A stretch of 64,000 nucleotides of DNA, from assembly GCA_919902985.1 (NCBI GenBank), contig CAKKSC010000021.1, positions 29,676-93,675 on the forward strand. Direction: 5' to 3'. Position numbers and translations under genes: made by a program. Under the pieces are notes generated by a model. It did no database searches. It saw nothing but the letters and a program-made list of their open reading frames with translations, and had not been told where the DNA came from. The DNA is from Desulfuromonadales bacterium. GTDB taxonomy: Bacteria > Desulfobacterota > JAENJC01. Below, one piece after another: positions 7,268 to 23,987 of this stretch. Position 1 is the first letter of the stretch, and every line of letters starts with the position of its first letter.

Positions 7268-7268
7268 A

Positions 7269-7367: not shown

Positions 7368-7419
7368 TAAATAAGGTATTTCTATGGCAAAAGAGTAAAA
7401 GGCAAAGCCAAGGGCAGTT

Positions 7420-9252
7420 ATGATTCAGGAGATAACCCTTCACGGGAGGGTTGAAAACAGTATAGAGTTCTATGCCACTATCGCCGGACGCGGACTGGTG
7501 TACAGCTATTTTTATGAACCCTCAGAAGGCTCTTCAGACAGGTTCTTTTTCGGAGGGAGAGAGTTTGTTATCGATAAGGAGGGGATAAGGCACAAAGGTA
7601 ACGGCGGCAGCGTTTGCGAATATATGTTCGGCGTTGAGCAGCCGTTGAAAGACATGGTAAGAAGGGACGTATTGAACCGGCTTGCCATGTATGGGGCCTT
7701 GTTTGATGACGAAACAGGAAAGGTGATATTCACAGACAAGACAGACGGGTATTGCATGTATGACAGGGTTTTTCTGGAGGGGAATGCCGTAAGCAACTAC
7801 TACTTCTTCATAGATATTGACCTGCGCGGAGATATTGGCTCCCAGCAGGAACAGATACTTAAACTTGTCGGAAAGACCCTCAAATACTCCCCTGCAGTAG
7901 GGAAGGGGGACGATGTTTCTCTTATGAGGGAATTGACCACAGACTTAGACGGCTATAACCCTGTCATATTTCTCTTCCGGCTTGTGAACCGCTACCACAA
8001 GAAGTACTACGACCTTTTCAGGGACCTTTATGCTGAGAAGAAGGAGATATCTCCGAAAGGTGAGAAGGTGCTGTCTTCTCTTGTGGAAGAGTTCAATATA
8101 GACCAGTATCAGCAGGAGAGGATAAAGATTGATGTCATATACAACCATCCGGAGAACAGGCGCGTTCTGGATGAGTACAAGGATATCCTCATCTCTCTGG
8201 AAAAAATGGAGGAGATAGACCATTCCTATATAACCTCCCTAAACAGGCTAAGATCGCTGGCCATGAAGAACAATATCCCTCTCTCCCTGTTTGATCTCCT
8301 GGATGAGCTTCTGCTTAAAGACAAGAAACTTCTCCAGGGTGAGGAGCCTGACTATATCAAGCACAGCAGGGCATTGCTGGACGGGCTGTTCATAATAGAA
8401 GGCGGGTTTGGAGCAATCCTGAGCAAGCAGGACCTTGTAAAACTCCTCTTTGACAAGAAGCGTTCCCTGGAAAACAGGGACCTGGCGTTTGACAGTCTTT
8501 TGCTGGATATAGGAAAGGCCTGTGACGACAGCTTTCAGAAGGGCGACTCGAGGGCCATGGAGAGGTTCAGTGAGCTCATCACATATTTCGATAGATTTGA
8601 TACTACATCTTCCATGATCAGCATGATGGCCTTTATGGATGAGGATATGCCGATAGAAAAACTGAGGAGTATACTTGGGAACAAAAGGGCCATTGAGGAA
8701 ATACAGGAAGGGCTCTTCGAGTCCCTTTTTATCTCGGACCTACTTAAAAATAAATATATTTCCTCTTCAGGCAGGAGGAAGGTCTTAATTCTGAGCAAGG
8801 GGCTTGATGATGTCGAGAAGGGGTATAAATCCCTGAATGAAATTACCAGCACTATCGCTCATATTAATGAAGAGGACAGGATATACCATCTTCTATACAG
8901 CACCGCAAGGGAGAAGCTGAAAAAGATACCAGGCGCTATGGAGGGGAAAGGAGATTCTGACAAGCTTCTAAAGGAGGTACTGAAAAATCTTCTTCATGAA
9001 GGCCCTATAAAAAGAATACCAAGGGAGATAATGAAGAGGGTCTTCATAGCGCTTAAAATGGAGATATTCTATGTCAATGATATATTGCCGAAGATAATGG
9101 ATACATTTGACATGAAGCCGAGGGGGGATTTCCTTCATAACAGCGGGTTTGACAGGTTCTACGTAGAGGATATAGAGAGGCAGTATATGGAAAAGTACGA
9201 TGTCCCCCCGGAGATAGCAAAGAGGTTCCGGGAGCTGGTTGAACAGGGGTAG
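7420..9252 (+). CDS. Uncharacterized 610-aa protein embedded in the chemotaxis operon
   Basis: Long ORF co-directional with cheB and the second cheR. I could not recognise any catalytic motif. It is rich in Lys/Glu helical repeats. Confidence 0.5.
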   Translation: MIQEITLHGRVENSIEFYATIAGRGLVYSYFYEPSEGSSDRFFFGGREFVIDKEGIRHKGNGGSVCEYMFGVEQPLKDMVRRDVLNRLAMYGALFDDETGKVIFTDKTDGYCMYDRVFLEGNAVSNYYFFIDIDLRGDIGSQQEQILKLVGKTLKYSPAVGKGDDVSLMRELTTDLDGYNPVIFLFRLVNRYHKKYYDLFRDLYAEKKEISPKGEKVLSSLVEEFNIDQYQQERIKIDVIYNHPENRRVLDEYKDILISLEKMEEIDHSYITSLNRLRSLAMKNNIPLSLFDLLDELLLKDKKLLQGEEPDYIKHSRALLDGLFIIEGGFGAILSKQDLVKLLFDKKRSLENRDLAFDSLLLDIGKACDDSFQKGDSRAMERFSELITYFDRFDTTSSMISMMAFMDEDMPIEKLRSILGNKRAIEEIQEGLFESLFISDLLKNKYISSSGRRKVLILSKGLDDVEKGYKSLNEITSTIAHINEEDRIYHLLYSTAREKLKKIPGAMEGKGDSDKLLKEVLKNLLHEGPIKRIPREIMKRVFIALKMEIFYVNDILPKIMDTFDMKPRGDFLHNSGFDRFYVEDIERQYMEKYDVPPEIAKRFRELVEQG

Positions 9253-9334
9253 CCTCTCGCCTTCCTTGACAAACTCAAAATCCGTGGTAAGTTTTGTCAT
9301 CTTCTAACGAGGTCAACAATGGCACGCATTTTGA

Positions 9335-9382
9335 ACTCACTCACTCACTCACTCACTCACTCACTCACTCACTCACTCACTC
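9335..9382. repeat. Perfect tetranucleotide microsatellite (ACTC)12
   Basis: actcactcactc... runs uninterrupted for 48 nt in the intergenic region, ~80 nt after the 610-aa gene and ~240 nt before the second cheR. Confidence 0.95.
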
Positions 9383-9576
9383 ATAAAATCCACTCCTTAT
9401 TCATAATGAATCGAAAAGTAATTATATTCACGAATGGCACGAAGAAAAGAAATATGTTTTTCTATATCTCCCCTGACCTTACCCTCCGGGCATAAACTCT
9501 TTTCCAAACAGGGGAATATCGAAGATCATAGTAGCGGTACTCTTTACGGTTGCTAATTTGTTGGTGCAGGTATAAT

Positions 9577-9605
9577 GTAGGGGCGGGTTTGAAACCAGCC
9601 CCTAC
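9577..9605. repeat. GTAGGGGCGGG-loop-CCAGCCCCTAC hairpin (REP-like) in the 5' leader of the second cheR; a sister copy is at 59956..59984
   Basis: A near-perfect palindrome sits immediately after a TATAAT hexamer (9571..9576) and before the AAGAGG RBS. The same arm sequence recurs between panC and panD. Confidence 0.5.
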
Positions 9606-9624
9606 GTGCGCCGCAAGAGGATGT

Positions 9625-10533
9625 ATGGATGATAAACTACTACACCTGTTCAGGCGGCTCATATCGAGGAAGACCGGGATAGTGGTAAGGACGGAAGACT
9701 TAACGGCATTGGAGAAATGCATCTCCGCCCGGATTGCACTGTTGAGACTTTTAGAGCCGGTAGACTATCTCCGCCTCCTATCCGGCGATACATATGTGAG
9801 CAGGTGCGAGTGGAAGGAGCTTATAATCCCCCTGACAATCGGGGAGTCATTCTTCTTCCCGGACAAGGGGCAGTTTGAGGTTCTTAAGGAGAGGATACTC
9901 CCTGAGTTGATAGAGAAGAGAAAGGATGTCCGCTCTCTGCGGATATGGAGCGCAGGATGTTCCCGCGGGGAGGAGCCGTATTCGTTGGCCATCCTGCTGG
10001 ATGGGCTTTTACCAGACAGGAGAGACTGGAACATATCCATCGTAGGAACCGATATAAACGAGGATACCTTGGGGAAGGCGAGACTCGGAGCATATACACA
10101 ATGGTCTTTTCGTATGGTGGAGCAGGAGGTGCAGGGGCGTTATTTCAAGAGACGCAGGGATGAATGGGAGATTGATGAAAGGATAAGGAATATGGTGACC
10201 TTCAGTTATGGGAACTTGATAGAAGAGGCTTTTCCTAATCATGAGATATGCAATATGGACCTGATCATGTGCAGGAATGTATTTATCTACTTCAAGGAGC
10301 TGGTATTAACACAGGCGCAACTCTATGACCTCAATACAAAGCTTGAGGAGAAGGTGAAGGAGAGGACTGCGGCGCTGAAGGCGGAGATCGAGCAGCGTAA
10401 GGCCACTGAGGAGTCCCTGAAGAAGAGCGACGAGGAGCTCCGCAAAAGCCTCGATGAGGTGGAAAGGCTCAACAGGCTGATGGTGAATGGTGAAGAGGGA
10501 GTTCAGGATAGAAGAGCTGAGGAAGGAGAATGA
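9625..10533 (+). CDS. CheR-family methyltransferase with C-terminal signalling-helix/coiled-coil extension; the tail is frameshifted by a 7-bp tandem duplication
   Basis: RBS AAGAGG 5 nt before the ATG at 9625. The CheR motif is LRIWSAGCSRGEEPYSLAILL, followed by an ERT signalling-helix motif (KVKERTAALKAE). The conserved terminal motif continues in the +1 frame at 10487..10576. Confidence 0.8.
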   Translation: MDDKLLHLFRRLISRKTGIVVRTEDLTALEKCISARIALLRLLEPVDYLRLLSGDTYVSRCEWKELIIPLTIGESFFFPDKGQFEVLKERILPELIEKRKDVRSLRIWSAGCSRGEEPYSLAILLDGLLPDRRDWNISIVGTDINEDTLGKARLGAYTQWSFRMVEQEVQGRYFKRRRDEWEIDERIRNMVTFSYGNLIEEAFPNHEICNMDLIMCRNVFIYFKELVLTQAQLYDLNTKLEEKVKERTAALKAEIEQRKATEESLKKSDEELRKSLDEVERLNRLMVNGEEGVQDRRAEEGE

Positions 10534-10600
10534 GAAGCTGAAGGAGAGGATTGAGGAGATGGAGGCGAAGGGATGAAGAATCACCAACAGGAGTTGGTTC

Positions 10601-11020
10601 CTACCGGCTTTCGATTATTATAGAGCTTATTTCATTTAGAACATCTTTTATAGATGGCATGGTTGCATCTATCACTTTGTTCTGAATGTGTTTATGGTGT
10701 GGGAATGAGCTGACTTCAGGATGATGTGAGGCATTGTCATAGCGGAAAATCATCTCTTTGTTCGAATTCATGTAGTGCAGGCGGTATTTAGTGATGACCA
10801 GGGCATTGCGAAAATTAGTGGCAAATATGGATATCTCAAGGGAAGAAGAATCGATAAATATGAGGTTCCCTTTTAGGTATACGGTGTTTCGAGGTCCGAA
10901 GTGTTTTTGGATGTTTGAGGATAAGACGATAGAGGAGGATGCAATGGTTTTATCTATTTCTTCTGCGAGCTTTTCAATCACCGTATTGCCGATTGAATGG
11001 CGGAACGGGTTTCCTGCCAT
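10601..11020 (-). CDS. Conserved hypothetical protein with an R-Y-D-N-A-x-H-H-P-E ... F-P-H-H-K-H motif (resembles DUF6516-type toxin-antitoxin-associated proteins)
   Basis: 139-aa ORF that overlaps the upstream 98-aa ORF by 43 nt. Family assignment is from memory of the motif only. Confidence 0.4.
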   Translation of the reverse strand: MAGNPFRHSIGNTVIEKLAEEIDKTIASSSIVLSSNIQKHFGPRNTVYLKGNLIFIDSSSLEISIFATNFRNALVITKYRLHYMNSNKEMIFRYDNASHHPEVSSFPHHKHIQNKVIDATMPSIKDVLNEISSIIIESR

Positions 11021-11274
11021 TCAGAAAGGAGTTTTGCGAAGGCATACCAGTCAAAGAAATCTGCTTCATCACCCATTTGGCCTGATTCAAACTTCTTCAG
11101 GAATGAAGGGGTGGTGAGATGGTATTTTTGCTCAAACTCTTTTACAGCCTTTTTGTAAAAGGCCATAGCGCTTGAATAGAGGCTGTATTCTCTCTTCAGG
11201 GAGGTTTTTATTTCATTTGTAAGCTGCATAATGAATTTATAGAGCAAATGGTCCGGCAAGTCAAGCAATAACAA
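10978..11274 (-). CDS. Small hypothetical protein, upstream partner of the 139-aa protein (possible two-gene addiction-like cassette)
   Basis: 98-aa ORF co-oriented with and overlapping the downstream gene. No recognisable motif. Confidence 0.3.
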   Translation of the reverse strand: MLLLDLPDHLLYKFIMQLTNEIKTSLKREYSLYSSAMAFYKKAVKEFEQKYHLTTPSFLKKFESGQMGDEADFFDWYAFAKLLSEWQETRSAIQSAIR

Positions 11275-11285: not shown

Positions 11286-13019
11286 ATGCCATTCAAGATA
11301 CGGACAAAACTCATCTTTGCATTCCTTGCAATAATAATCCCGTACATGGTTATTTCAGGAACAATCTTCCTTTATAACATGAATATTATCTACAAGGGGG
11401 TCAACAAGGTTGAGGCCGTCGCCGGAGAGATGAAGAAGAGCTATAACCTTCAGCTTGCCCTGGATATGGCATTGATGCCTATCAACGACTACATAATCAC
11501 AGGCGAGAAGAGGTATATGGAAGAGTTTCGGAAGACATCTCTGGAAGTAGAGAGGTGGCTGAAGGAGTTGGAAGGGGAACTGGCCGGTCTGGAGGGGTTG
11601 TTCCCTGCCGAGGTAAAGGAGGAGAAGGAGATACTGAATGACATCAGGGCCTCATGGCAGAAGGTAAAGGAGATGTCGCTTGAGATATTTGCGATCCCAA
11701 ACCCGGTCGGCAATAGTGACGCCGCAAGGCTTATGGAGGATATGGACTATAAATTGGCTTACCCTGCCATAGAAAGGCTCAGGAGATGGCAGGAGATTGA
11801 TAAGGAGGAATACAGGGAGGCCCATGAAGAGTCTGAGAGGGCGTTGAGGCTGGTAGTGATAATCATGATTGCGGGCGGAGTCATATTGGCCTTCATCGGC
11901 GGCTTCTTTGCTATTTTCTATTCCAGGATGTTCGTCAGGCCGATAGAGACCATTCATGAAAGGGTAGACGCCATAGCCGGAGGGGATTTCAAGACGAGGC
12001 TAGATATAAAGACAGATGATGAGATTGAGCAGCTTGCAAACGCCGTGAACGAGATGGCCGCCCAGCTTGACTCTTTTACCTCAAACCTTCAGGGTATGAT
12101 TGAGGAGAGGACGGCGGAGCTGAGGGAGAGTGAGGAGCATTACCGGGGTGTTTTTGAAAAAACGCCAAATGCGATTGTGATTTTTGACGCAGAGACATTG
12201 CACTTTGAAAAGGTCAACCGCGGTGCAGTAGACCTTTATGGGTACACAGAAGAAGAGTTCCGCTCCCTGACCCCACCGGACGTCTCGGCGGAGGTGGAAA
12301 AGACCAGGAAAGCCGTACAAGACGGCCTTGCCGAGAAGTTTGCCCATGTCCCTGTACGGTATCATAAGAAGAAGGACGGGACGGTCTTCCCTATTGAAAT
12401 ATTCATGGGGACCTTTTTATCCAATGGACGCCAGAAGGGTTTTGCGGTCATAGTTGACCTTACAGCGATAAAAAAGAACGAGGAAATGTTAAAGGCGAGC
12501 GAGGAGCGGTTCCGCACCATTACAAATACCGCTGGCGATGCCATTATCTGTCTGGAGGCTCCCGGTAATATTAATTTATGGAATAAAAAGGCAGAGGAGA
12601 TGTTCGGATACACGGCAGATGAGGTGATGGGAAGGGATATGCATGACCTCATTGTCCCTGAAAAATACCGTGAAAAGGCCCGCGAGGGTTTGAAGGGATT
12701 TTTCCAGACAGGCGCAGGGCCTGTTGTCGGCAAGACCGTCGAGCTTACAGCCCTTCGTAAGGATGGGACGGAGTTCCCTATCGCCCTTTCCATCTCGGCA
12801 ATGAAGATACAGGAAGAGTGGCAGACCACAGGCATCATCAGGGACATCACCGAAAGGAAGAAGGCGGAGGATAAGATAAAGGAGCAGCTGGATCTCCTTA
12901 AACGGTTTGAGAAGGTGGCGATAGACAGGGAGTTCAGGATAAAGGAACTCCGGGATGAGAACGATTTGCTGAAAAAGAGGATTGGGGAGATGGAGAAAAG
13001 ATTCAAAACTAATGCATAA
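11286..13019 (+). CDS. Membrane-anchored sensor: TM helix - helical sensor region - HAMP - signalling helix - PAS - PAS - conserved C-terminal coiled-coil tag. No kinase, GGDEF or MCP output domain
   Basis: N-terminal hydrophobic helix and a second TM (VVIIMIAGGVILAFIGGFFAIFY). The HAMP region ends in DEIEQLANAVNEMA, followed by the ERT motif (IEERTAELRESEE). Two PAS folds follow. It ends in DREFRIKELRDENDLLKKRIGEME. Confidence 0.75.
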   Translation: MPFKIRTKLIFAFLAIIIPYMVISGTIFLYNMNIIYKGVNKVEAVAGEMKKSYNLQLALDMALMPINDYIITGEKRYMEEFRKTSLEVERWLKELEGELAGLEGLFPAEVKEEKEILNDIRASWQKVKEMSLEIFAIPNPVGNSDAARLMEDMDYKLAYPAIERLRRWQEIDKEEYREAHEESERALRLVVIIMIAGGVILAFIGGFFAIFYSRMFVRPIETIHERVDAIAGGDFKTRLDIKTDDEIEQLANAVNEMAAQLDSFTSNLQGMIEERTAELRESEEHYRGVFEKTPNAIVIFDAETLHFEKVNRGAVDLYGYTEEEFRSLTPPDVSAEVEKTRKAVQDGLAEKFAHVPVRYHKKKDGTVFPIEIFMGTFLSNGRQKGFAVIVDLTAIKKNEEMLKASEERFRTITNTAGDAIICLEAPGNINLWNKKAEEMFGYTADEVMGRDMHDLIVPEKYREKAREGLKGFFQTGAGPVVGKTVELTALRKDGTEFPIALSISAMKIQEEWQTTGIIRDITERKKAEDKIKEQLDLLKRFEKVAIDREFRIKELRDENDLLKKRIGEMEKRFKTNA

Positions 13020-13257
13020 GTAAGGCAAAAAGGAATGCAAGTTTTTCTCTTGAGATGCCTGCTTTTTTGAGGATGTTATGGAGGGTCCCTTTCTTAAGGG
13101 ACTTATTGGAGTGAACAGGGATGGGAATGGTTAAAGCGCCTTCTTCAGTCTGTTTCTGGTATATGCGGTGGCTGCCTGTCTGTCTCACAAAGACAAAGCC
13201 TTCTTTTTCAAGAGCCCTGCACAGTTCTTGTCCGCTGATTTGCGGCAACTTACCCAT
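13009..13257 (-). CDS. hicA: HicA-family mRNA interferase toxin
   Basis: 82 aa with the HicA hallmarks (ELCRALEKEGFVFVRQTGSHRIYQK...GTLHNILKKAGI). It overlaps the upstream hicB by 8 nt. Confidence 0.8.
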   Translation of the reverse strand: MGKLPQISGQELCRALEKEGFVFVRQTGSHRIYQKQTEEGALTIPIPVHSNKSLKKGTLHNILKKAGISREKLAFLFALLMH

Positions 13258-13477
13258 TTATGACAAGTTCCAGTTCCTTAACCTGATGCCCCTTGGCGAA
13301 ATGCGGTATATTTTCAAGGCCGACAACATCTACGTATCCATTTGCGGCGTCTTTGAGCATATAAACAGCCTCTTCAACGGTTTCGCCTTCTGTGGTGATG
13401 TCAAGTTCCGGGCAATATACAACGTAACCGCCTTCTTCAGCGGGGGTGAGCTCCGCAGTGATTTTTATCGTTGTCAT
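13250..13477 (-). CDS. hicB: HicB-family antitoxin (UPF0150-like)
   Basis: 75 aa (TIKITAELTPAEEGGYVVYCPELDITTEGETVEEAVYMLKDA), typical of the HicB N-domain. Lies immediately upstream of hicA. Confidence 0.75.
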   Translation of the reverse strand: MTTIKITAELTPAEEGGYVVYCPELDITTEGETVEEAVYMLKDAANGYVDVVGLENIPHFAKGHQVKELELVING

Positions 13478-13553
13478 AAAGACCTCCTGTTTCAGAGGAT
13501 AGCATTTTGCCGGATAAAGTCAAGTATTGAACTGGAACCGGGTGAGGGAAAGT

Positions 13554-15659
13554 ATGTCTAATGAGGTTCTTATATCAGAATTAGAGGCCGAAAACAAAAA
13601 GCTCAGGGCCGAACTTGAGAAGGCCCATGAGAAGGAGCAGGATGCTGAGAAAAGCAGTACGGCTACGCTCTTTATGCTGGAAGATATTGGAAGGTCACGT
13701 GACGAGATAGAGAGGAGTAAGAAGGAGTGGGAGGCGACATTTGACAGCATTTCTGATCCTCTTTTCATCCATGATAAAGAGATGAGACTTATAAGAGTGA
13801 ACAGGGCATACCTATTGGTTTCCGGCGAGGAAAAGTTCAAGAAGATAATCGGAAGGCCATATTACGAGGTCTTTCCGAAGATAGACGGGCCGTTCAAGAC
13901 ATGTCTGAAGGCATTTGAATTGCAGGAGGAGGAGCAGCAGGAGGTTTTACTGCCCTCTATAAACAAGGCCTTTAAGGTCAGGTTCTACCCCATAAAGGAT
14001 GAAAACGGCAGTCTCCTTTATTCCATCCATATCCTTGAAGACATAACAGAGGCGAAGAGGGCGGAGGAGAGGATAAAAGAGGAGATGGAGGTCACCACCC
14101 ATCTCCTTATGATCTCCGAGGCCACCGCCCATACAACAGATATAGACAAGCTCATGCAGCAGGTCGTCCACTGCGGCCACGAGATAATGAGGTGCGGTAT
14201 ATGCCTGTCATATCTCTATGATGAGGACTCAAGGGTATTCCAGCCATGTCAGGAGTTTGGTCTTTCTCATGAATTGATCCCGGTTTTCAGGACAGAGCCG
14301 ATAGATGAAGAGATGGAGTTTGTCAGAAAGGCGGTAAAGGGGAAGGAGCCGGCGGTAGATCAGGTAGGTGCGATTCATGAATCGCACCTACAATGGTTGC
14401 CCGACTTCAAAACCCTCGCTGTCATTCCACTTATTGGCAAGACCGGCCCCCTCGGCCTCATTGTCGGTATTTACAAAAGGCCAACCGAGACTACGGAAAG
14501 GGATAAAAAGATAATGGTGGGGATATCACAGCAGGTCTCTGTTGCTCTCGAGCAGGCAAGGCTTTACAAGGAGTCTATAGACAAAACTCTGGAGCTTTCC
14601 CACAAGATAGAGACGATAAGGGTGATGAACGAGATAGACAGGTCTATCCTCTCGACCCTGAAGGCGGATGAACTGCTTGAGACTGTGACGAGACTTATTT
14701 CAAAGGTGATCCCCTGTGACCGGGCGACAGTCTCACTTGTTGACAGGGAGAGGGGCGGGTTCATATACAAGGCCGGTTTTGGGACAGCAGTGGTCCAAAA
14801 GGGTGCCTTTGTCTCCTTTGCCGATATGTCTGCCAGGGGAATTGTTGAGACAGGCAGAACGGAGTGCGTTAACAACCTCTCGGAGATGACGCCGCTTCTA
14901 CCCATAGAGAAGAGATTTCTTGATGAAGGGTTTCTATCCCACATAAGGGTCCCCATAACGATAAAGGGGAATGTGGCCGGGATATTGACGGTTGGCGCAA
15001 AGAGGGTTGCGGCCTTTACAAAGGAAAATCTCTCGACCCTCGAATATCTCTGCTCCCAGATAGGCGTTGCCCTGTCCAATGCAGGGCTTATATCAGACCT
15101 TGAGGAGCTTTTTGTCGGTGTGGTAAAGTCACTGTCCTCCGCCATAGACGCCAAGTCACCGTGGACAGCCGGTCATTCGGAGAGGGTCACGAAATATGCC
15201 CTTGATATTGCGAAGCAGATGGGCTTGCCTGAGAAGGAGCTTAAAGACCTTGAGCTTGCCGGACTCCTGCACGACATCGGGAAGATAGGGACTTACGAGT
15301 CCATACTCGATAAACCTGCAAAGCTTAACGATGAGGAGCAGGCCGTGATGAGGCAGCATCCTGTAATGGGCGCTGAGATACTTGCTCACATTAGACAATT
15401 GAAAGATATTATCCCTGGAGTGAAATACCACCATGAATTCTATGACGGGACGGGTTACCCTGAAGGGCTCAAGGGAGAGGCTATACCGTTACACGCACGA
15501 ATCCTCACCGTTGCCGATACCGTAGACGCGATGGGTGCGGACAGGCCTTACAGGGAGGGGATGACAATGGATGTTATCATTGCAGAGCTGAAGAGATGCT
15601 CCGGGACGCAGTTTGATCCTAAGGTGGCGGAGGCGTTTCTGGAAGTGATTGGAACATAG
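13554..15659 (+). CDS. Coiled-coil - PAS - GAF - GAF - HD-GYP c-di-GMP phosphodiesterase-type protein
   Basis: HD motif in LAGLLHDIGKIG and GYP motif in HHEFYDGTGYPEGL. The ORF is open from 13527, but GAGGGA lies 4 nt before the ATG at 13554. Confidence 0.8.
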   Translation: MSNEVLISELEAENKKLRAELEKAHEKEQDAEKSSTATLFMLEDIGRSRDEIERSKKEWEATFDSISDPLFIHDKEMRLIRVNRAYLLVSGEEKFKKIIGRPYYEVFPKIDGPFKTCLKAFELQEEEQQEVLLPSINKAFKVRFYPIKDENGSLLYSIHILEDITEAKRAEERIKEEMEVTTHLLMISEATAHTTDIDKLMQQVVHCGHEIMRCGICLSYLYDEDSRVFQPCQEFGLSHELIPVFRTEPIDEEMEFVRKAVKGKEPAVDQVGAIHESHLQWLPDFKTLAVIPLIGKTGPLGLIVGIYKRPTETTERDKKIMVGISQQVSVALEQARLYKESIDKTLELSHKIETIRVMNEIDRSILSTLKADELLETVTRLISKVIPCDRATVSLVDRERGGFIYKAGFGTAVVQKGAFVSFADMSARGIVETGRTECVNNLSEMTPLLPIEKRFLDEGFLSHIRVPITIKGNVAGILTVGAKRVAAFTKENLSTLEYLCSQIGVALSNAGLISDLEELFVGVVKSLSSAIDAKSPWTAGHSERVTKYALDIAKQMGLPEKELKDLELAGLLHDIGKIGTYESILDKPAKLNDEEQAVMRQHPVMGAEILAHIRQLKDIIPGVKYHHEFYDGTGYPEGLKGEAIPLHARILTVADTVDAMGADRPYREGMTMDVIIAELKRCSGTQFDPKVAEAFLEVIGT
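15134..15640. repeat. ~500-bp block almost identical to 18418..18924 (HD-GYP domain-encoding 3' ends of two paralogues)
   Basis: By-eye alignment shows only a handful of substitutions (for example atgacaatgg/atggcgatgg, gcagagctg/gcggaactg, and the last ~15 nt). Upstream of the block the paralogues are much more diverged at nucleotide level. Confidence 0.85.
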
Positions 15660-15725
15660 GTCCCTTGCATACATTCTACTTGCTGGTAAAATTTAACAGA
15701 TAATCAATATCTAAGGAGGTATTTT

Positions 15726-16280
15726 TTGGCTAATATCAGTGTATTAATTGTTGAAGATGAGGAGTTTTTTGCAAGCGAAGTCCAAGATATATTGAATAAG
15801 CTAGGATACGATGTCTTAGGTATCGCTTCGACTGGAGAGGATGCCGTTAAGATGACGGAAGAGACCCACCCTGATCTGGTCCTCATGGATATTGTCCTTA
15901 AAGGGGAAATGGATGGTGTTACAGCTGCTGAACAGATCCATGAACGTCTCGATATACCTGTCATATATCTTACCGGTCTTACAGGTGACCAGATAACGGA
16001 GAGGGCAAAAACAACAGAACCTTTCGGATATATCCTGAAACCTTTTCAGGAAAGGGAATTGCATGTTGCGATAGAGATAGCCCTTTATAGGCATAAGATG
16101 GAGAAGAAGTTTAGGGAGATTTCAGAAGAGCGTGAAAAATATACCGCCGATCTGGAAAGGATGAATAAGCTGATGATAGGACGGGAATTAAAGATGGAGG
16201 AGCTTAAGAAGAAAAATGAGAGGTTGAAGGAGTTGGTTGAGGAACTGGAAAGCAAAATCAGGGCAGGAGAAAGACCGTGA
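15726..16280 (+). CDS. Single-domain response regulator (REC) with conserved C-terminal coiled-coil tag
   Basis: TTG start with an AAGGAGG RBS. REC motifs VLIVEDEE...LVLMDIVL...IYLTG...K are present. The C-terminus is IGRELKMEELKKKNERLKELVEELES. Confidence 0.75.
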   Translation: MANISVLIVEDEEFFASEVQDILNKLGYDVLGIASTGEDAVKMTEETHPDLVLMDIVLKGEMDGVTAAEQIHERLDIPVIYLTGLTGDQITERAKTTEPFGYILKPFQERELHVAIEIALYRHKMEKKFREISEEREKYTADLERMNKLMIGRELKMEELKKKNERLKELVEELESKIRAGERP

Positions 16281-16302
16281 AGAAGGTCCAACGGTAAGGC
16301 TT

Positions 16303-18954
16303 ATGGGAAACAACCCCGAAATCGAAAGACTCGAAGTTGAGGTAAGCAGGCTCAAATTGGACCTTGAAAAGGCCCAAGAACGTGAGGAGCTTGCCGAGGT
16401 GTCCCGAAGGATTATCCTCAACATGATGGAGGAGGTGAATGAGTCTGCCGAAAACATAGAGAAGGGAAAGCGGGAGTGGGAGGCGACCTTTGATGCCATC
16501 TCAGAGCCACTCTTCATCCATGATAAAGAGATGAGGATAATCAGGGCGAACAAGGCATATCTTAGTGCATCCGGCGAGGGCGGGTTCGAGCATATAATCG
16601 GCAGACCGTATTACGAGGTCTTCCCCAAGAGGGATGGTCCTTTCAGGATGTGCTCGAAGTCATTGGAATTGCGGGAGGAGGTGGAGGAGGTTTCTCTTCC
16701 AGCTACAGGCAAGGTTTTCAGGGTAAGGTTTTATCCAGTCCAAGGTCCGGCCAAAGAATCCCTTTACTCCATTCATGTCATGGAGGACATAACCGATTCA
16801 AAGAGGGAAGAGGAGAAGCGTAAGATACTGTATGAGTTTAGCAATAGAATGATCGCCAGTATGGACCTTGATTACAGGTTGAACCACATCTGTTCAACGA
16901 TAGTTGATTTCGGTTATAGAATGGCCTGGATAGGCACCTTGAGAGATGATACCAAAGAGGTGGTCCCCAGGTCCCAGGCTGGATTTGAGGAGGGGTACAT
17001 ATCCACCGTCAGGGTAAGATATGACGACTCACCTTTAGGGCAGGGGCCAACGGGGATAGCGATTAAGAGTAAGAAGCCTGAATTTCAGAACCACATTGCA
17101 ACAGATCCGAGGTATGGGCCTTGGAGAGAGGCTGCCTTGAAAAGAGGGTATGGTTCTTCGGCTGCCTTCCCTATCATGCACGAAAACAAGGTCATTGCCG
17201 TACTTAATATATACAACTCGAATGAGACCTTCCCGGAGAAGGAGATAAATTTCCTTCAGACCTTCGCCAATCAGACTGGAACGGCCCTGAGAAATGCCCA
17301 GCTGTTTGAGGAGGTTAAGGGATCGGCTGAAAGGATAAGGCAGGAGATGGAGGTGACGACCCATCTCCTGATGATCGCGGACGCCGTTGCCGGGACGACG
17401 GATATAGACAGGCTCATGGAGCAGGTTGTTCACTGCGGGCACAAGATCACAGGCTGTGATATCTGTCTTTCATACCTATGGGACAAGGACTTAAATGCCT
17501 TTCAACCATGCCAGGAGTTTGGCCTGCCTAAAGAATTACTTCCCATCTTCAGGACGGAACCGTTGGGCATTAAGGCAGAGTTTGTCAAACAAGCTCTAAC
17601 GAAGAAGGCCCCGGTGATAGAAAAGGTAGGGGCGGTCTGCGAACCCACCCTACAGTGGATTGCCGACATTAACACCATTGCCGTAATTCCCCTGACAGGC
17701 AAGAAGGATTATCTCGGCCTGATAGTAGGCATCTATCAGGCAGGGAAGGGTTTGAAATCCGCCCTTACGGAATTCACAGAAAGGGACATAAATCTTATGC
17801 AGGGGATCTCCCACCAGGTCTCAGTTGCCCTTGAGGAGGCAAGCCTTTACAAGGAATCCACCGACAGGGCCATGGAGCTTTCCCATAAGATTGAGACCAT
17901 AAAGGTGATGCATGAGATAGACAGGAGCATCCTCTCGACCCTGGCATCTACTGAGATACTTGAGACCGTTACCAGGATGATTGGTAGGTTGATCCCCTGC
18001 GACAGGGCAACCATTGCCCTTGTGGATAAGGAAAGAGAGGGGTTTATCTATGAGGCAGGTTTTGGGTTGATATTTATCCAGAAGGGGGCGCTGGTACTTT
18101 TTGCTGAGACATCGGCAACAGAGGTGGTAACGACAGGTAGGCCTCAATACATCCAGGATCTTGAGATAGTCAATGAACCGCTGCCTTTTGAGCAGAGGCT
18201 CCTCAAAGATGGTTTCCTTTCACATATCAGGCTCCCCCTCGCAGTAAAGGGTGAGGTAGTGGCGGTCTTAAACGTTGGTGCAAAGAGGTCCGCCGCATTT
18301 ACAAAGGAAAACCTGTCTACTCTTGAGTATCTTGCATCCCAGATAGGCGTTGCCCTCTCAAATGCAGGTCTTGTATCAGACCTTGAGGGGCTTTTCATAG
18401 GAGTGGTCAAGTCCCTCTCCTCCGCCATAGACGCCAAGTCACCGTGGACAGCCGGTCATTCGGAGAGGGTCACGAAATATGCCCTTGATATTGCGAAGCA
18501 GATGGGCTTGCCTGAGAAGGAGCTTAAAGACCTTGAGCTTGCCGGACTCCTGCACGACATCGGGAAGATAGGGACTTACGAGTCCATACTCGATAAACCT
18601 GCAAAGCTTAACGATGAGGAGCAGGCCGTGATGAGGCAGCATCCTGTAATGGGCGCTGAGATACTTGCTCACATTAGACAATTGAAAGATATTATCCCTG
18701 GAGTGAAATACCACCATGAATTCTATGACGGGACGGGTTACCCTGAAGGGCTCAAGGGAGAGGCTATACCGTTACACGCACGAATCCTCACCGTTGCCGA
18801 TACCGTAGACGCGATGGGTGCGGACAGGCCTTACAGGGAGGGGATGGCGATGGATGTTATCATTGCGGAACTGAAGAGATGCTCCGGGACGCAGTTTGAT
18901 CCTAAGGTGGCGGAGGCGTTTTTAAAGGTTTTACCTCAAAAAGATATTGTCTAA
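16303..18954 (+). CDS. Coiled-coil - PAS - GAF - GAF - GAF - HD-GYP protein (paralogue of 13554..15659)
   Basis: Same architecture as the paralogue plus an extra GAF domain. The HD-GYP domain is near-identical to the paralogue's. The ORF is open from 16237 (overlapping the preceding gene); by homology to the paralogue's N-terminus, M at 16303 is the likely start. Confidence 0.8.
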   Translation: MGNNPEIERLEVEVSRLKLDLEKAQEREELAEVSRRIILNMMEEVNESAENIEKGKREWEATFDAISEPLFIHDKEMRIIRANKAYLSASGEGGFEHIIGRPYYEVFPKRDGPFRMCSKSLELREEVEEVSLPATGKVFRVRFYPVQGPAKESLYSIHVMEDITDSKREEEKRKILYEFSNRMIASMDLDYRLNHICSTIVDFGYRMAWIGTLRDDTKEVVPRSQAGFEEGYISTVRVRYDDSPLGQGPTGIAIKSKKPEFQNHIATDPRYGPWREAALKRGYGSSAAFPIMHENKVIAVLNIYNSNETFPEKEINFLQTFANQTGTALRNAQLFEEVKGSAERIRQEMEVTTHLLMIADAVAGTTDIDRLMEQVVHCGHKITGCDICLSYLWDKDLNAFQPCQEFGLPKELLPIFRTEPLGIKAEFVKQALTKKAPVIEKVGAVCEPTLQWIADINTIAVIPLTGKKDYLGLIVGIYQAGKGLKSALTEFTERDINLMQGISHQVSVALEEASLYKESTDRAMELSHKIETIKVMHEIDRSILSTLASTEILETVTRMIGRLIPCDRATIALVDKEREGFIYEAGFGLIFIQKGALVLFAETSATEVVTTGRPQYIQDLEIVNEPLPFEQRLLKDGFLSHIRLPLAVKGEVVAVLNVGAKRSAAFTKENLSTLEYLASQIGVALSNAGLVSDLEGLFIGVVKSLSSAIDAKSPWTAGHSERVTKYALDIAKQMGLPEKELKDLELAGLLHDIGKIGTYESILDKPAKLNDEEQAVMRQHPVMGAEILAHIRQLKDIIPGVKYHHEFYDGTGYPEGLKGEAIPLHARILTVADTVDAMGADRPYREGMAMDVIIAELKRCSGTQFDPKVAEAFLKVLPQKDIV
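18418..18924. repeat. Second copy of the near-identical HD-GYP-encoding block (see 15134..15640)
   Basis: See the paired feature. Even antisense ORFs translate identically (15156..15434 and 18439..18717). Confidence 0.85.
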
Positions 18955-19006
18955 ATCCCTTCTTTCTGATAAATTCCAATCATAACTAATTTTTCGGAGG
19001 TATGTT

Positions 19007-20791
19007 TTGGCAGAATCGCTGGAAGGATGGAAGAGGAGCAATAGTTGCGGAGAGCTTAATTCCTCGTATATTGATAAGGATGTTCTTCTGATGGGCTGGG
19101 TACAGAGAAGAAGGGACCATGGTGGTCTTATATTCATAGACCTTCGGGACAGGGAAGGGCTTACACAGGTCGTCTTTAACCCGGAATCCGGGGCTGCATC
19201 CCATGCAAAGGCCCATTCCCTTAGAAGCGAGCATGTTGTTGCCATAAAGGGAAAGGTCTCCAAAAGACCGGAAGGGACTGTGAACCCCAATCTGAAGACA
19301 GGTGAGATAGAGGTCATAGCCGATTCACTTAAGCTGCTTAACGAATCTAAGACACCGCCCTTTGCAATAGAGGACGACCTCGATGCTGCTGAGACCCTGA
19401 GGCTCAGGTACCGTTACCTGGATCTGAGGAGGCCATTAATTCAGAGCAAGATCATTCTCCGCCACAAGGTAGTGCAGAAGTTCAGAGGGTTTCTAAGCAA
19501 CAACGGTTTTCTTGAGATAGAGACACCTATGCTCACAAAGAGCACGCCTGAAGGGGCAAGGGACTTCCTTGTCCCGAGCAGACTCAGCCCTGGTGCGTTC
19601 TATGCACTCCCGCAGTCCCCGCAACTGTTTAAACAGATCCTGATGGTTTCAGGGTTTGATAAATATTATCAGGTTGTAAGGTGTTTCAGGGACGAGGACC
19701 TCCGGGCAGACAGGCAGCCTGAGTTCACCCAGATAGATATTGAGATGTCCTTTATTGATATGGATGATCTCATGGGTCTGATGGAGGAGATGATCGGAGA
19801 TGTTTTCCACGAGGCCAGGGGGGTCAGACCAAACACCCCCTTCTCACGGCTCACATACAAAGAGGCTATTGACAGGTTCGGTCTTGATGCCCCTGATACA
19901 AGGTTTGGGATGGAGTTAAATGACATATCGGATGTGGTGAAGAACTCCTCATTTAAGGTCTTTGCAGACCCACTTTCAAAGGGCGGGGTTGTAAAGGTAA
20001 TTAATGTCAGGGGCGGAGGTTCCATGTCCAGGGCAGAGATAGATCTACTTACGGAATTTGCAAGGTCCCACGGCGCAAAGGGTCTTGCATGGGTCAAGGT
20101 GACGGCAGAAGGCTGGCAGTCGCCGATCGCAAAGTTCCTTACAGAGGATGAGATAAAGGGGGTAAATGAGAAGTCAGGCGCCGAAATTGGAGATATCCTC
20201 CTGTTCGCTGCTGATAGCTACAAGGTTGCAAATACGCTCCTCGGCAGGCTGAGGGTGCATCTCGGTCATAAGCTTGGGCTGATAGACAAGGCTATCTTTA
20301 ACTTTGTTTGGGTGACTGAGTTTCCTCTGCTTGAATTTGACGAGGCAGAAAAGAGGTATGTAGCTGTTCATCATCCTTTTACAGCTCCTATGGACGAGGA
20401 CATGCCGCATATTTCGGACCAGCCTGAAAAGGTCAGGGCAAAGGCCTATGATCTTGTTCTGAACGGCACCGAGATTGGTGGAGGGAGTATCAGGATACAC
20501 CGCCAGGACATACAGTCTATGATTTTTACCAAGCTTGGGATAACCGAGGAGGAGGGGAGGGAGAAGTTCGGTTTCCTCCTGGAGGCCCTTGAATACGGCG
20601 CCCCGCCGCATGGAGGAATAGCATTCGGACTCGACAGGCTTATTGCGATACTAACAGGCTCCGACTCCATCAGGGATGTCATCGCGTTCCCCAAGACACA
20701 GAAAGGGACGTGCCTCATGACCGATGCACCTTCAAAGGTCGGGAAGAGGCAGTTAGATGAGCTTTCTATAAAGGCGAATATAGTTGAGTGA
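19007..20791 (+). CDS. aspS: Aspartyl-tRNA synthetase
   Basis: TTG start 6 nt after GGAGG. The class II aaRS AspRS signature runs throughout (anticodon-binding OB fold, [33 protein letters not shown]). Confidence 0.9.
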
Positions 20792-21947: not shown

Positions 21948-22191
21948 AAATATACCTTCGTCGGTTTTTTATGAAACTTGACAGTCATATTAATAACAGC
22001 TTTCCGTCCGCCGATTCTAAGTAGACTTTAGAGAATAAAGCATACTCTGTCAAGAAAAATGAACTGAAAAATGAGCTGAATTGTACTCCTGTTTCAGGGT
22101 AAATTTATCAACTTACCCACTTTGCAAAATTCCGCACCCGTGCTAAGCTTTCTCTGTAAAACTGGAGAAACAGTTATGGCACCTACCTTGC

Positions 22192-22230
<39 letters not shown>

Positions 22231-22334
22231 TTTGCCCTAGCGGCAAGTCTGTTGCGGATTTTGGAAATTCAAAAACCTCGGTTTCACCGGAGCAGCGGTG
22301 GCCGGGGTTTTTGTTTTTTAGGGCGGAGGGGTAC

Positions 22335-23987
22335 ATGAGCGTCAGGACGAAATTGATCTTAATGTTTGCGGGCATTGCTATGCTTGTCGGTATTGGCGCC
22401 TCCTTCTACGTCATATATGACCATTGGATAGAAGCCGATGAGCACGCTGCACGCCATGCTGAAGGCTCCGCCAGAGCCTTTGCCTTTGCCATGGTCTCCG
22501 AGGATCTATCAGCAAACTCCACACCCATATATAAATCTCCAGTGCAGCTACAGAATTTCATTACCGATCTGCACGCGAAACTCAAACAAGATATTGAGTT
22601 GGTGGATACCCAAAAGAAGATACTCGGAGACGCAATCCCCGAAGATGTGGGCACAGTACTTGACCATGATAGTAATGACGAAGTGGGGCAGACGATAAGG
22701 GACGGCATCACCAGGACGCTGATTGAAACAAGCGCGGATTATCCCCAGGGGATTCGTCAGATCGCAGTCCAGGTCAAGACGAAACAGGGGGAAGTAGTTG
22801 GCGCCCTCCTCCTTGAGTACACAAATGTTTATGACGAACACATTGCCGATGCAAAAAGAGAGATGCTCTATTTTTACATGGAAGCACTCATCTCGGTATT
22901 CATGGTCAGCCTGATCGGGTTTTGGTTCGCCAGAAGCATCACCAATCCGATTCTGAAGTTGGCCAAGGCGAGCGGCGAGATGGCAGCAGGCAATCTTGAT
23001 GTAATAGTGGAGGTTGCATCGAAGGACGAGATTGGCGACCTCGCCACGGCCTTTAACAATATGGTGGAATCGAGGAAGTTGGCAGAGAAAAAGGCAAGGG
23101 AGAGCGAAAACCGCTTCAGGAAACTCTTTGAAAACTCCAACGACGCCATCTTCATCAATGATGCAGAAACGAGCCGTATTCTCGATGTCAACGAGCGGGT
23201 GCTGAAAAACCTGGGATATACCAGGGAAGAATTACTGGCGATGAGGGTCACCGATATCGAGGCTACCCTGCCGGATAAATTCTCATGGGAAAACCACATG
23301 AGGGAACTCGACGCAGCGGGTTTCATGCTCCTCGAAGGCCGACACAGGAGAAAGGATGGCGTCGTATTCCCCGTTGAGATCAGTGTAAGGAACATTCAGG
23401 CGGAAGAGAAAAAGTTCAATCTTGCCATCGTCCGCGACATCACCGAGCGGAAAAAGGCGGAGGAAAAGCTATTGGAGAGCAGGAAGACGATAGAATCTGT
23501 CCTGAACGCTACCACTGACGCGCTGTTTCTGATAGATGCCGCAGGGAATATCCTTGCATTGAATGAAACAACCGCCGGGAGGCTTGCTAAAAAACCAGGG
23601 GAGCTTATCGGTTCCTGCATATATGACCATCTGCCTCCCGCTATTGCGCAGGCAAGGAAGGCGTATGTTGATGAGGCGATGCGCACCGGCAAAACCGTAA
23701 GGTTTGAAGATGAACACAATGGAGAGTGGCTGGACAACAGTATATTCCCTATCTCTGATGAACAGGGAAAGCTTGTAAGGGCTGTCATTTATGGCCACTA
23801 CATCACAGACCGCAAGAACGCGGAGAAGGAGCTTAAGGAAAAGTCCGCAAATCTTGAGAGGTTCAACAGGCATATGGTCGGCAGGGAGATGCGTATGCTT
23901 GAGATGAAAAAAGAGGTGAACGACCTCCTTGAGAGGCTGGGAGAGCCGAAGAGGTATGAATGGACGAAAGAGGGGGAATCTTCATGA
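22335..23987 (+). CDS. Membrane sensor: TM - periplasmic-type sensor region - TM - HAMP - PAS - PAS - conserved C-terminal coiled-coil tag. No enzymatic output domain
   Basis: GGAGGG RBS 4-5 nt before the ATG at 22335 (MSVRTKLILMFAGIAML...). The second TM is followed by HAMP (ITNPILKLAKASGEMAAGNLD...EIGDLATAFNNM). Two PAS folds follow. It ends in GREMRMLEMKKEVNDLLERLGE. The ORF is open from 22122. Confidence 0.7.
   Translation: MSVRTKLILMFAGIAMLVGIGASFYVIYDHWIEADEHAARHAEGSARAFAFAMVSEDLSANSTPIYKSPVQLQNFITDLHAKLKQDIELVDTQKKILGDAIPEDVGTVLDHDSNDEVGQTIRDGITRTLIETSADYPQGIRQIAVQVKTKQGEVVGALLLEYTNVYDEHIADAKREMLYFYMEALISVFMVSLIGFWFARSITNPILKLAKASGEMAAGNLDVIVEVASKDEIGDLATAFNNMVESRKLAEKKARESENRFRKLFENSNDAIFINDAETSRILDVNERVLKNLGYTREELLAMRVTDIEATLPDKFSWENHMRELDAAGFMLLEGRHRRKDGVVFPVEISVRNIQAEEKKFNLAIVRDITERKKAEEKLLESRKTIESVLNATTDALFLIDAAGNILALNETTAGRLAKKPGELIGSCIYDHLPPAIAQARKAYVDEAMRTGKTVRFEDEHNGEWLDNSIFPISDEQGKLVRAVIYGHYITDRKNAEKELKEKSANLERFNRHMVGREMRMLEMKKEVNDLLERLGEPKRYEWTKEGESS

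What the first reader, a model, noticed from the sequence alone, without database searches (positions are those of the whole stretch)
15134..18924. Two PAS-GAF-HD-GYP paralogues share a ~500-bp near-identical 3' block, indicating recent gene conversion
Seen in sequence: 15134..15640 and 18418..18924 differ at only a few positions by eye, roughly 98-99% identical. The more 5' parts of the two genes are similar at protein level but clearly diverged at DNA level. The block covers the whole HD-GYP catalytic core (HDIGKIG...HHEFYDGTGYP).

Inference: concerted evolution keeps the catalytic module identical while the sensory PAS/GAF modules diverge (one GAF domain extra in the longer paralogue). This gives two inputs with the same output. 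The identical block is also a substrate for recombination that could delete the intervening REC gene and the 5' half of the second paralogue.
Basis: seen in the sequence. Interest (0 to 1): 0.5.

Follow-up and report, generated by a model that had tools for sequence, protein, structure and literature searches.

The report
Gene conversion between neighbouring HD-GYP genes
Two neighbouring signalling-enzyme genes of an uncultured groundwater bacterium carry an almost identical 504-base catalytic segment because one gene's copy was pasted over the other by homologous recombination; this is a real but ordinary kind of event, and the near-perfect identity in this window is probably exaggerated by short-read assembly.

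Summary
Window 15135..15638 matches 18418..18921: 504 bp, 4 mismatches (99.2%), including a perfect 429-bp run. The rest of the two genes is about 66% identical, with saturated synonymous sites (pS 0.62-0.77, against 0.027 in the block).

Orthologue comparisons and trees show a non-reciprocal replacement. Gene A (PAS-GAF-GAF-HD-GYP) keeps its own block. Gene B (PAS-GAF-GAF-GAF-HD-GYP) carries an A-lineage block, although its sensor half and the upstream REC gene are orthologous to loci that have a different, B-type block.

B is a three-part chimera: a B-type sensor, an A-type catalytic block, and a short tail shared with the aspS-adjacent HD-GYP genes of two relatives.

Five other assemblies of the same population differ from the window almost only inside the blocks. 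A Nanopore-style assembly places 15 further differences between the copies, giving 96.2% identity. The pattern fits k=55 bubble collapse, so the perfect run is probably partly an assembly artefact.

Verdict: a genuine interlocus gene conversion between paralogues 3.3 kb apart. It is a new example of a known phenomenon and of modest interest.

The parts
13554..15659 (+). Gene A: PAS-GAF-GAF-HD-GYP protein of 701 aa. It is the donor lineage of the block.
   Evidence: Pfam PAS_4, GAF_3, GAF_2 and HD_5 hits. The same gene call is made in an independent assembly. It clusters with the A-type orthologues L007 and L001 both upstream and in the block.
15135..15638 (+). Block copy 1, the HD-GYP catalytic domain of A (residues 528-695).
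   Evidence: pS against the A orthologue L007 is 0.39 in the block and 0.42 upstream, so the block is native to A.
15328..15506 (+). Span holding the 15 sites where independent assemblies of the same population disagree with the window: V1 (15328, 15329, 15340, 15347) and V2 (11 third-codon positions, 15452-15506). The same sites in copy 2 are 18611-18789.
   Evidence: The long-read-style L050 has A = alt and B = ref at all 15 sites. The window has ref in both copies.
15639..15706 (+). Native A tail (EVIGT, then stop) and its 3' flank.
   Evidence: This stretch aligns with the tail and downstream intergenic region of the A orthologue in L007.
15707..16280 (+). Ribosome-binding site and REC (stand-alone receiver) gene, 15726..16280. 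The junction with the A flank lies at 15706|15707.
   Evidence: Homology to the rnr-REC loci L047, L091 and L092 begins exactly at 15707. Pfam Response_reg hit.
16303..18954 (+). Gene B: PAS-GAF-GAF-GAF-HD-GYP protein of 883 aa. It is a chimera and the recipient of the block.
   Evidence: The 5' 2.1 kb is orthologous to L047 (pS 0.198), but the block is not (pS 0.693).
16816..17340 (+). Extra GAF domain, present only in B.
   Evidence: The A/B protein alignment has an insertion of about 172 aa here. Pfam GAF_2 matches residues 210-351 of the 905-aa ORF.
18282..18417 (+). Mosaic 5' transition zone, where A-lineage and B-lineage alleles are interleaved.
   Evidence: Lineage-informative sites from the four-way alignment of winA, winB, L007 and L047.
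18418..18921 (+). Block copy 2, an A-lineage HD-GYP domain inside gene B.
18922..18990 (+). B tail (KVLPQKDIV, then stop) and the start of the intergenic region. It belongs to the aspS-adjacent locus, not to A and not to B-type genes.
   Evidence: 94-100% identical to the corresponding stretch of L055 and L074, both of which are followed by aspS. B-type genes end in KTLQNKP and are followed by ubiB.
19007..20791 (+). aspS (aspartyl-tRNA synthetase), the conserved anchor downstream.
   Evidence: Pfam hits. 93-94% aa identity to the aspS of L055 and L074.

Best explanation
Genes A and B are old paralogues encoding cytoplasmic sensor phosphodiesterases. Each has a PAS-GAF input array coupled to an HD-GYP cyclic-dinucleotide phosphodiesterase output.

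In this lineage a rearrangement placed REC-B immediately downstream of A, with the junction at 15706|15707. The two HD-GYP modules then lay 3.3 kb apart in direct orientation. Non-reciprocal homologous recombination (interlocus gene conversion, presumably RecA-dependent) then copied A's HD-GYP-coding segment over the corresponding segment of B.

The tract runs from a fuzzy 5' edge (about 18282-18417, in the conserved GAF-to-HD-GYP linker) to 18921, where homology between the genes ends. B therefore now couples a B-type sensor array to an A-type catalytic domain, which differs at 42 of 168 residues from the B-type domain kept by its closest orthologue.

What is shown:
- the identity of the two blocks;
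- homogenised synonymous sites;
- the direction of transfer (A lineage into B);
- the junctions;
- that the repeat is real.

What is inferred:
- the recombination mechanism;
- that there were one or several events;
- that the perfect 429-bp run in this window is partly a short-read assembly collapse, and that the real copies differ at about 19 sites (96.2%).
For: - Identity: 99.2% in the block against 66% in the flanks; pS 0.027 against 0.62-0.77.
- A is the donor: winA against the A orthologue L007 gives pS 0.42 upstream and 0.39 in the block.
- B is the recipient: winB against the B orthologue L047 gives pS 0.198 upstream and 0.693 in the block.
- Lineage-informative sites switch from B-like to A-like across 18282-18417 and stay A-like up to 18921.
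- In NJ trees winB sits in the B clade for the GAF region and beside winA and L007 for the block.
- The window blocks are 96-99% identical to each other but only 85-89% identical to the nearest other A-type blocks.
- The repeat is real. Five other assemblies of the same population carry the same chimeric B. One of them has only homopolymer and dinucleotide-repeat indels (Nanopore-style) and spans both copies. Two short-read contigs break 51-55 nt inside the repeat.
- The HD and HHEFYDGTGYP motifs are intact. The best solved relatives are the HD-GYP enzymes V-cGAP3 and PmGH.
Against: - B's tail and aspS context are not B-native. B could therefore have been assembled by grafting REC plus the B sensor half onto an existing A-like 3' end, rather than by a two-ended conversion tract.
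- In the long-read haplotypes the differences between the copies are clustered. V2 has 11 differences in 55 bp (pS 0.63), and both V2 alleles are A-lineage-like. V1 in copy A carries states not seen in the A orthologue L007. One simple A-to-B event does not explain this pattern.
- No reads were available, so which alleles sit in which copy in the genome behind this window is an inference.
- The trees have no bootstrap support values.
Confidence: 0.72

Rival explanations
1. Graft rather than conversion. An aspS-adjacent HD-GYP gene with an A-like block already lay next to A. It might have been a partial duplicate of A's 3' end or an L055-like hybrid. REC plus the B sensor half then integrated by homology-facilitated illegitimate recombination, with one homologous end in the linker/block region and one illegitimate end at 15706|15707. 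On this reading the two blocks are similar by descent from a duplication, with at most later small conversions.
For: - B's tail and aspS context are shared with L055 (A-type 5' half) and L074 (a third type of 5' half).
- The native context of B-type genes is rnr...B-ubiB, with a different tail.
- The left junction at 15706|15707 is non-homologous and the right junction is a mosaic inside homologous sequence.
Against: - It needs an extra unobserved intermediate, a duplicated A 3' end carrying a different tail.
- L055's tail is derived rather than ancestral. The tails of L007, L062 and window A are of the KIEGKLER type.
- It still needs recent homogenisation to explain 405 of 504 bp being perfectly identical in every assembly while the flanks are saturated.
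Confidence: 0.18
2. Ongoing concerted evolution with real strain-level variation. The different combinations of V1 and V2 alleles seen in the assemblies would be true haplotypes of co-existing strains. These would be produced by frequent short-tract conversion in both directions, and the window's 99.2% identity would be real for its strain.
For: In two assemblies the two copies carry the same allele at V1 and V2, but a different V2 allele in each assembly (window: ref/ref; L048: alt/alt). This is what within-genome homogenisation predicts.
Against: - Almost every difference between assemblies over 8-14 kb lies inside the blocks (1-2 substitutions elsewhere), so the 'strains' would be otherwise clonal.
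- The sites that vary among assemblies are exactly those more than 55 nt from any copy-specific site (15506 to 15564 is 58 nt). The sites within 55 nt (15564-15587) are always assigned the same way.
- Contig ends fall 55 nt inside the repeat.
- All observed combinations are reproduced by collapsing two true haplotypes, A = alt and B = ref, which are the ones the long-read-style assembly gives.
Confidence: 0.2
3. The whole feature is an assembly artefact. The real B would have its own divergent HD-GYP block, and the assembler threaded A's block into B.
For: The source is a metagenome-assembled genome, and short-read assemblies visibly mishandle this repeat.
Against: - Six assemblies from different samples and assemblers give the same chimeric B. 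One of them is a Nanopore-style contig spanning both copies.
- The copy-specific sites at 15564-15587 and the distinct tails are reproduced in all of them.
- The 5' boundary is a graded mosaic, not a sharp k-mer switch.
Confidence: 0.02
4. The identity reflects purifying selection or nucleotide-level constraint on the HD-GYP domain, not recombination.
For: The HD-GYP core is the most conserved part of the protein family.
Against: - Orthologues show ordinary synonymous divergence inside the same block: pS 0.39 against L007 and 0.69 against L047.
- P(<=3 synonymous differences in 113 sites at pS 0.68) is about 3e-50.
Confidence: 0.01

Closest known systems
Campylobacter jejuni group A chemoreceptors Tlp2/Tlp3/Tlp4: identical signalling domains with divergent dCache sensor domains. 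Tlp genes also bound invertible chromosome segments.
   Same: Paralogous sensor proteins within one genome share an identical C-terminal output module while the N-terminal sensor modules are only about 30% identical (PMC9769880). The shared 3' halves also act as substrates for homologous recombination that rearranges the chromosome (PMC6433261).
   Different: The output module here is an HD-GYP phosphodiesterase, not an MCP signalling domain. There are only two copies, they are adjacent and in direct orientation, and the recipient's tail comes from a third source. No literature on gene conversion between HD-GYP genes was found.
Classical bacterial interlocus gene conversion, such as tufA/tufB and rRNA operons. 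This comparison rests on my own knowledge plus the general reviews listed.
   Same: Non-reciprocal homologous recombination homogenises DNA between paralogues. The signs are near-zero synonymous divergence in the tract and disagreement between tract and flank phylogenies.
   Different: In those cases whole genes or operons with identical function are homogenised over long periods. Here only one domain-sized segment of a multidomain gene is affected, and the closest sister lineage (L047) is unconverted.
HD-GYP phosphodiesterases with solved structures: V-cGAP3 (5z7c), PmGH (4mcw) and PA4781 (4r8z).
   Same: The block matches them at E = 4e-51, 1e-36 and 5e-21. The HD motif and the HHE..DG.GYP motif are conserved.
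   Different: The sensor architecture differs: PAS plus 2-3 GAF domains here, against REC or tandem HD-GYP domains in the solved proteins. The substrate (c-di-GMP or 3'3'-cGAMP) is untested.

Membership tests
HD-GYP domain phosphodiesterase (Pfam HD_5, PF13487) | A significant match to the HD_5 profile above the gathering score | tested here: met
   A scores 136.2 bits and B 133.8 bits, against a cut-off of 27.2. Both cover profile positions 3-170 of 170.
HD-GYP domain phosphodiesterase (Pfam HD_5, PF13487) | Catalytic HD dyad and the HHExxDGxGYP motif | tested here: met
   LLHDIGK and KYHHEFYDGTGYP are present in both proteins. They align with the same motifs of V-cGAP3 and PmGH.
HD-GYP domain phosphodiesterase (Pfam HD_5, PF13487) | Hydrolysis of c-di-GMP or another cyclic dinucleotide | not testable with these tools
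   This needs an enzyme assay. The best solved relative is specific for 3'3'-cGAMP and the next ones act on c-di-GMP.
Interlocus (ectopic) gene conversion | A tract of near-identity bounded on both sides by diverged paralogous sequence within the genes | tested here: met
   15135-15638 equals 18418-18921 at 99.2%. The 5' flank is 60-80% identical and the 3' tails are unalignable.
Interlocus (ectopic) gene conversion | Homogenisation at synonymous sites, so not explained by selection on the protein | tested here: met
   pS is 0.027 in the block and 0.62-0.77 upstream. Using the long-read haplotypes it is still only 0.132.
Interlocus (ectopic) gene conversion | Phylogenetic conflict: the tract groups by genome and the flanks group by paralogue | tested here: met
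   NJ trees of the GAF region and of the block, and lineage-informative sites. No bootstrap values were computed.
Interlocus (ectopic) gene conversion | The orthologue of the recipient keeps the unconverted sequence, and the donor is unchanged (non-reciprocity) | tested here: met
   L047, L091 and L092 keep a B-type block (pS 0.69 to the window block). A's block is as close to L007 as A's upstream part is.
Interlocus (ectopic) gene conversion | Both copies really exist in one DNA molecule, so the repeat is not an assembly product | tested here: met
   The Nanopore-style contig L050 spans both copies. Short-read contigs L051 and L093 break 51-55 nt inside the repeat. The exact identity level stays uncertain.
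Long-term concerted evolution of the output module | Repeated homogenisation over time or in several lineages | tested here: inconclusive
   For: the patchy differences, the mosaic 5' zone, and the half-A-like block of L074. Against: the closest B lineage, L047, is unconverted. No second genome with both genes side by side was found.

The most novel reading that the evidence does not exclude
In this clade of groundwater Deltaproteobacteria the conserved HD-GYP-coding segment may act as a recurrent recombination anchor. At one fixed chromosomal site, upstream of aspS, the same tail and 3' context is joined to three different sensor halves in three lineages: B-type with REC in the window, A-type with HAMP-PAS in L055, and a third type in L074. 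Every one of these breakpoints lies within or at the edge of the HD-GYP block. If this is right, homologous recombination at a shared output domain is a natural mechanism for rewiring which signals control a cyclic-dinucleotide phosphodiesterase. The identical blocks in the window would be the footprint of the latest such exchange.
Probability: 0.3. Interest if true: 0.55.

Novelty: new member of a known kind. Interest (0 to 1): 0.3.

Why it matters
Biologically, this is a clean natural example of a domain-sized gene conversion. It re-couples a sensor array (PAS plus three GAF domains) to a different catalytic module, changing 42 of 168 residues in one step, in a second-messenger enzyme family where such events seem not to have been described. 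The relatives suggest that the conserved output domain is where sensor modules get exchanged.

Practically, it is a caution. In short-read metagenome assemblies a 0.5-kb intragenomic repeat can be collapsed, so paralogues look more identical than they are. That changes three amino acids in the deposited gene A. It also makes a conversion look 'recent' when it need not be.

Tried and rejected
- A protein search with the 168-aa block alone, meant to find a third paralogue or donor, returned only short fragments at 86% identity or less. It did not even list A or B, so it is uninformative.
- Exact look-ups of the window's own A and B proteins found no contig on record. I reached the same population through near-identical cluster members instead.
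- A literature search for gene conversion in HD-GYP genes returned only irrelevant Borrelia papers.
- A search for a paper describing the Hainich groundwater MAGs found nothing useful.
- The hicAB pair upstream of A was tested as a shared derived marker linking L055 to the window. It is absent from L055, L052 and L064 and present in much more distant loci, so it does not discriminate.
- The rnr gene that flanks REC in relatives is not in the window.
- The 146-aa ORF at 13121..13561 (+) is most likely spurious. It is the antisense of hicA/hicB.
- Recent whole-gene duplication is rejected because synonymous sites in the flanks are saturated and both paralogue types have separate orthologues.
- No tRNA genes were found in the window.
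- One malformed DNA search failed.
Full report

Yes, with a 1-base correction. At offset 3283 it is 98.8%. The shared block is window 15135..15638 = 18418..18921. It is 504 bp long with 4 mismatches (15564, 15566, 15584, 15587), which is 99.2%, and it includes a perfect run of 429 bp.

The repeat finder and a self-BLAST show the two genes are paralogous over about 2 kb, at 72-79% identity. In a codon alignment, the aligned sequence outside the block is 66.4% identical. Four or fewer mismatches in 504 bp then has P of about 4e-82. Synonymous divergence is saturated upstream (pS 0.62-0.77) and 0.027 in the block.

**2. What the genes are**

- Gene A (13554..15659, 701 aa) is PAS-GAF-GAF-HD_5.
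- Gene B (16303..18954, 883 aa) is PAS-GAF-GAF-GAF-HD_5. It carries an insertion of about 172 aa that forms the extra GAF domain.
- A 184-aa stand-alone receiver (REC) gene (15726..16280) lies between them.
- aspS follows B.

The block coincides almost exactly with the HD_5 (HD-GYP) domain. The HD and HHEFYDGTGYP motifs are intact. The best solved relatives are V-cGAP3 (5z7c, E = 4e-51), PmGH (4mcw) and PA4781 (4r8z). Both proteins are therefore predicted cytoplasmic cyclic-dinucleotide phosphodiesterases. Activity and substrate are untested.

The organism is an uncultured deltaproteobacterium from groundwater. NCBI names the proteins 'MAG... [Deltaproteobacteria bacterium]'. Sister assemblies come from Hainich well H52.

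**3. Direction and nature of the event**

The nearest A orthologue is L007 (91% aa identity). It is as close to window A in the block (pS 0.39) as it is upstream (pS 0.42).

The nearest B orthologue is L047, a Logan contig carrying rnr-REC-B. It is close to window B upstream (pS 0.198; REC pS 0.254), but at paralogue-level distance in the block (pS 0.693).

Lineage-informative sites in window B behave as follows:
- B-like up to about 18273;
- mixed across 18282-18417;
- uniformly A-like from 18418 to 18921.

NJ trees agree. In the GAF region winB groups with the B clade (P0002, P0129, P0003). In the block it sits beside winA, within the A clade next to L007.

The block in B is therefore A-lineage sequence, and A's own block is native. 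The block differs from the B-type domain of L047 at 42 of 168 residues. Other A-type blocks are only 85-89% identical to the window's. The last homogenisation was therefore between the two neighbours themselves. This is the signature of non-reciprocal interlocus gene conversion from A into B.

**4. B is a three-part chimera**

- A's tail and about 50 nt of its 3' flank (15639-15706) are homologous to those of L007.
- Homology to REC loci (L047, L091, L092) starts exactly at 15707. This defines a non-homologous junction just upstream of the REC ribosome-binding site.
- B-type genes in relatives sit in an rnr-REC-(HK-REC-REC/PAS)-B-ubiB context and end in KTLQNKP.
- Window B ends in KVLPQKDIV and is followed by aspS. 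That same tail is 94-100% identical at DNA level in two relatives at aspS pS of about 0.36. There it precedes aspS in genes with other 5' halves: L055 has HAMP-PAS plus an A-type gene, and L074 has a third sensor type whose block is A-like only in its 3' half.

The 3' boundary at 18921 is therefore simply where homology among these genes ends. The HD-GYP segment has been a recombination junction more than once in this clade. L055 has exactly the architecture expected from a deletion between the two blocks. However, its A gene is closest to L007, which has the native A context. An independent recombination between A and the aspS-adjacent gene is therefore at least as likely.

**5. How identical are the copies really?**

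The same population was assembled at least five more times: L048, L049, L050, L051 and L093. These loci match the window at 99.7-99.8%.

Almost all base differences between the assemblies fall inside the blocks. Only 1-2 substitutions lie elsewhere: 14405 in L049 and one unlocated substitution in L050. The differing sites are V1 (15328, 15329, 15340, 15347) and V2 (11 third-codon positions at 15452-15506), or their equivalents in copy 2.

L050 differs from the window otherwise only by homopolymer and dinucleotide-repeat indels, which is Nanopore-style, and it spans both copies. It has the alternative allele at all 15 sites in A and the window allele in B. That makes 19 differences in 504 bp, or 96.2%, with pS 0.132.

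| Assembly | V1 | V2 |
|---|---|---|
| Window | ref in both copies | ref in both copies |
| L048 | ref in both copies | alt in both copies |
| L049 | alt in both copies | A = alt, B = ref |
| L050 | A = alt, B = ref | A = alt, B = ref |
| L051 | A = alt (B not covered: contig ends 55 nt into B's block) | A = alt (B not covered) |

L051 stops exactly 55 nt into B's block. L093 covers 15509-18468, starting 55 nt before the first copy-specific site and ending 51 nt into the second block.

The sites that are always assigned consistently (15564-15587) lie within 55 nt of copy-specific sequence. The last site of V2 is 58 nt from the nearest such site.

All of this is what a k=55 de Bruijn assembly would give: bubbles are popped and the resolved repeat is then pasted into both places. 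I therefore think the perfect 429-bp run in the window is partly an artefact (about 70% confidence), and that the deposited gene A is wrong at up to 15 bases, affecting 3 amino acids. The alternative is real strain haplotypes generated by frequent conversion. Without reads this cannot be excluded.

**6. Residual structure**

With the long-read haplotypes, the 19 differences fall in three patches separated by perfectly identical stretches of 193, 104, 57 and 51 bp. The probability of this by chance is below 1e-3.

V2 differs at 11 of 55 bp, yet both alleles look A-lineage: 48-49 of 55 match L007, against 38-39 of 55 for L047. At V1, copy B matches L007 at all 20 positions, and copy A carries states seen in other family members.

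A single clean A-to-B event does not explain this. Possible explanations are patchy mismatch repair, several overlapping conversions, or later import of short patches into A. I could not separate these.

**7. Comparison with what is known**

The phenomenon is ordinary interlocus gene conversion restricted to a shared output domain. The closest described parallel is C. jejuni Tlp2/3/4. Their signalling domains are identical while their sensor domains are about 30% identical (PMC9769880). Tlp genes also bound invertible chromosome segments (PMC6433261). I found no report of this for HD-GYP genes.

It is a new member of a known kind. Interest is modest. The two points worth keeping are the hint that the HD-GYP module serves as a recombination anchor for exchanging sensor halves at the aspS locus, and the demonstration that short-read assemblies over-homogenise such repeats.

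Noticed in passing
window 13009..13257 (-) and 13250..13477 (-): A hicA toxin and hicB-like antitoxin pair sits between the HAMP-PAS gene and gene A. The same pair (80-83% aa identity) lies upstream of A-type HD-GYP genes in much more distant relatives (L004, L005, L070, L071, L075). It is absent from closer ones (L055, L052, L064). The 146-aa + strand ORF at 13121..13561 is its antisense and is probably spurious.
   Followed up: partly
window 10601..11020 (-) and 10978..11274 (-): A second small two-gene module, a TumE-family (PF20126) protein plus a 98-aa partner, lies just upstream of the HAMP-PAS gene. Two toxin-antitoxin-like pairs therefore flank that gene.
   Followed up: no
window 11286..13019 (+) and 22122..23987 (+): Two HAMP-PAS proteins have no recognisable output domain. 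The first is conserved upstream of A-type HD-GYP genes in many relatives, which suggests a functional pairing. Segments of about 60-70 nt at 10493-10564, 12927-12997 and 29798-29871 are 80-85% similar to each other.
   Followed up: no
window 30587..30649, 31370..31432, 41276..41338: Three copies (90-97% identical) of a 63-bp intergenic palindromic element, GGGGACAGTCCCTATT...AATAGGGACAGTCCCC, which looks REP-like.
   Followed up: no
window 7269..7369 and 35249..35349: A 101-bp inverted repeat at 91% identity, with the copies 28 kb apart. It was not examined.
   Followed up: no
window 14364..14391: A perfect 28-bp palindrome inside gene A, in the GAF region. It is conserved in all assemblies of the population.
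   Followed up: no
L074:880-1530 and L055:3828-3961 (both correspond to window ~18990): At the same point between the HD-GYP tail and aspS, L074 carries an insertion of about 650 bp. It encodes a GIY-YIG-like small protein flanked by GGCACGCAGGAATGACA repeats. L055 carries an insertion of about 134 bp that looks REP-like. The window has neither.
   Followed up: no
L091 and L092 (ENA ANAN16-1 scaffolds): In these relatives the REC gene orthologous to window 15726..16280 is separated from the B-type HD-GYP gene by a histidine kinase, a REC gene and a REC-PAS gene. The order is rnr-REC-HK-REC-REC/PAS-HD-GYP-ubiB. In some homologues a REC domain is fused to the HD-GYP protein (for example P0098). 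This suggests that REC and B belong to one phosphorelay.
   Followed up: partly
window 15726 (REC start): The REC gene starts with TTG in the window, where the orthologue in L047 has ATG. The start lies 19 nt downstream of the rearrangement junction at 15706|15707.
   Followed up: no
window ~1..11000 and 20799..~33000: The locus sits in a dense signalling island. Upstream are CheB, two CheR genes and a CHP04442 protein. Downstream are a PAS histidine kinase on the minus strand, V4R-PAS, HNOB-V4R, PAS-HK, REC-GGDEF and further REC genes.
   Followed up: no
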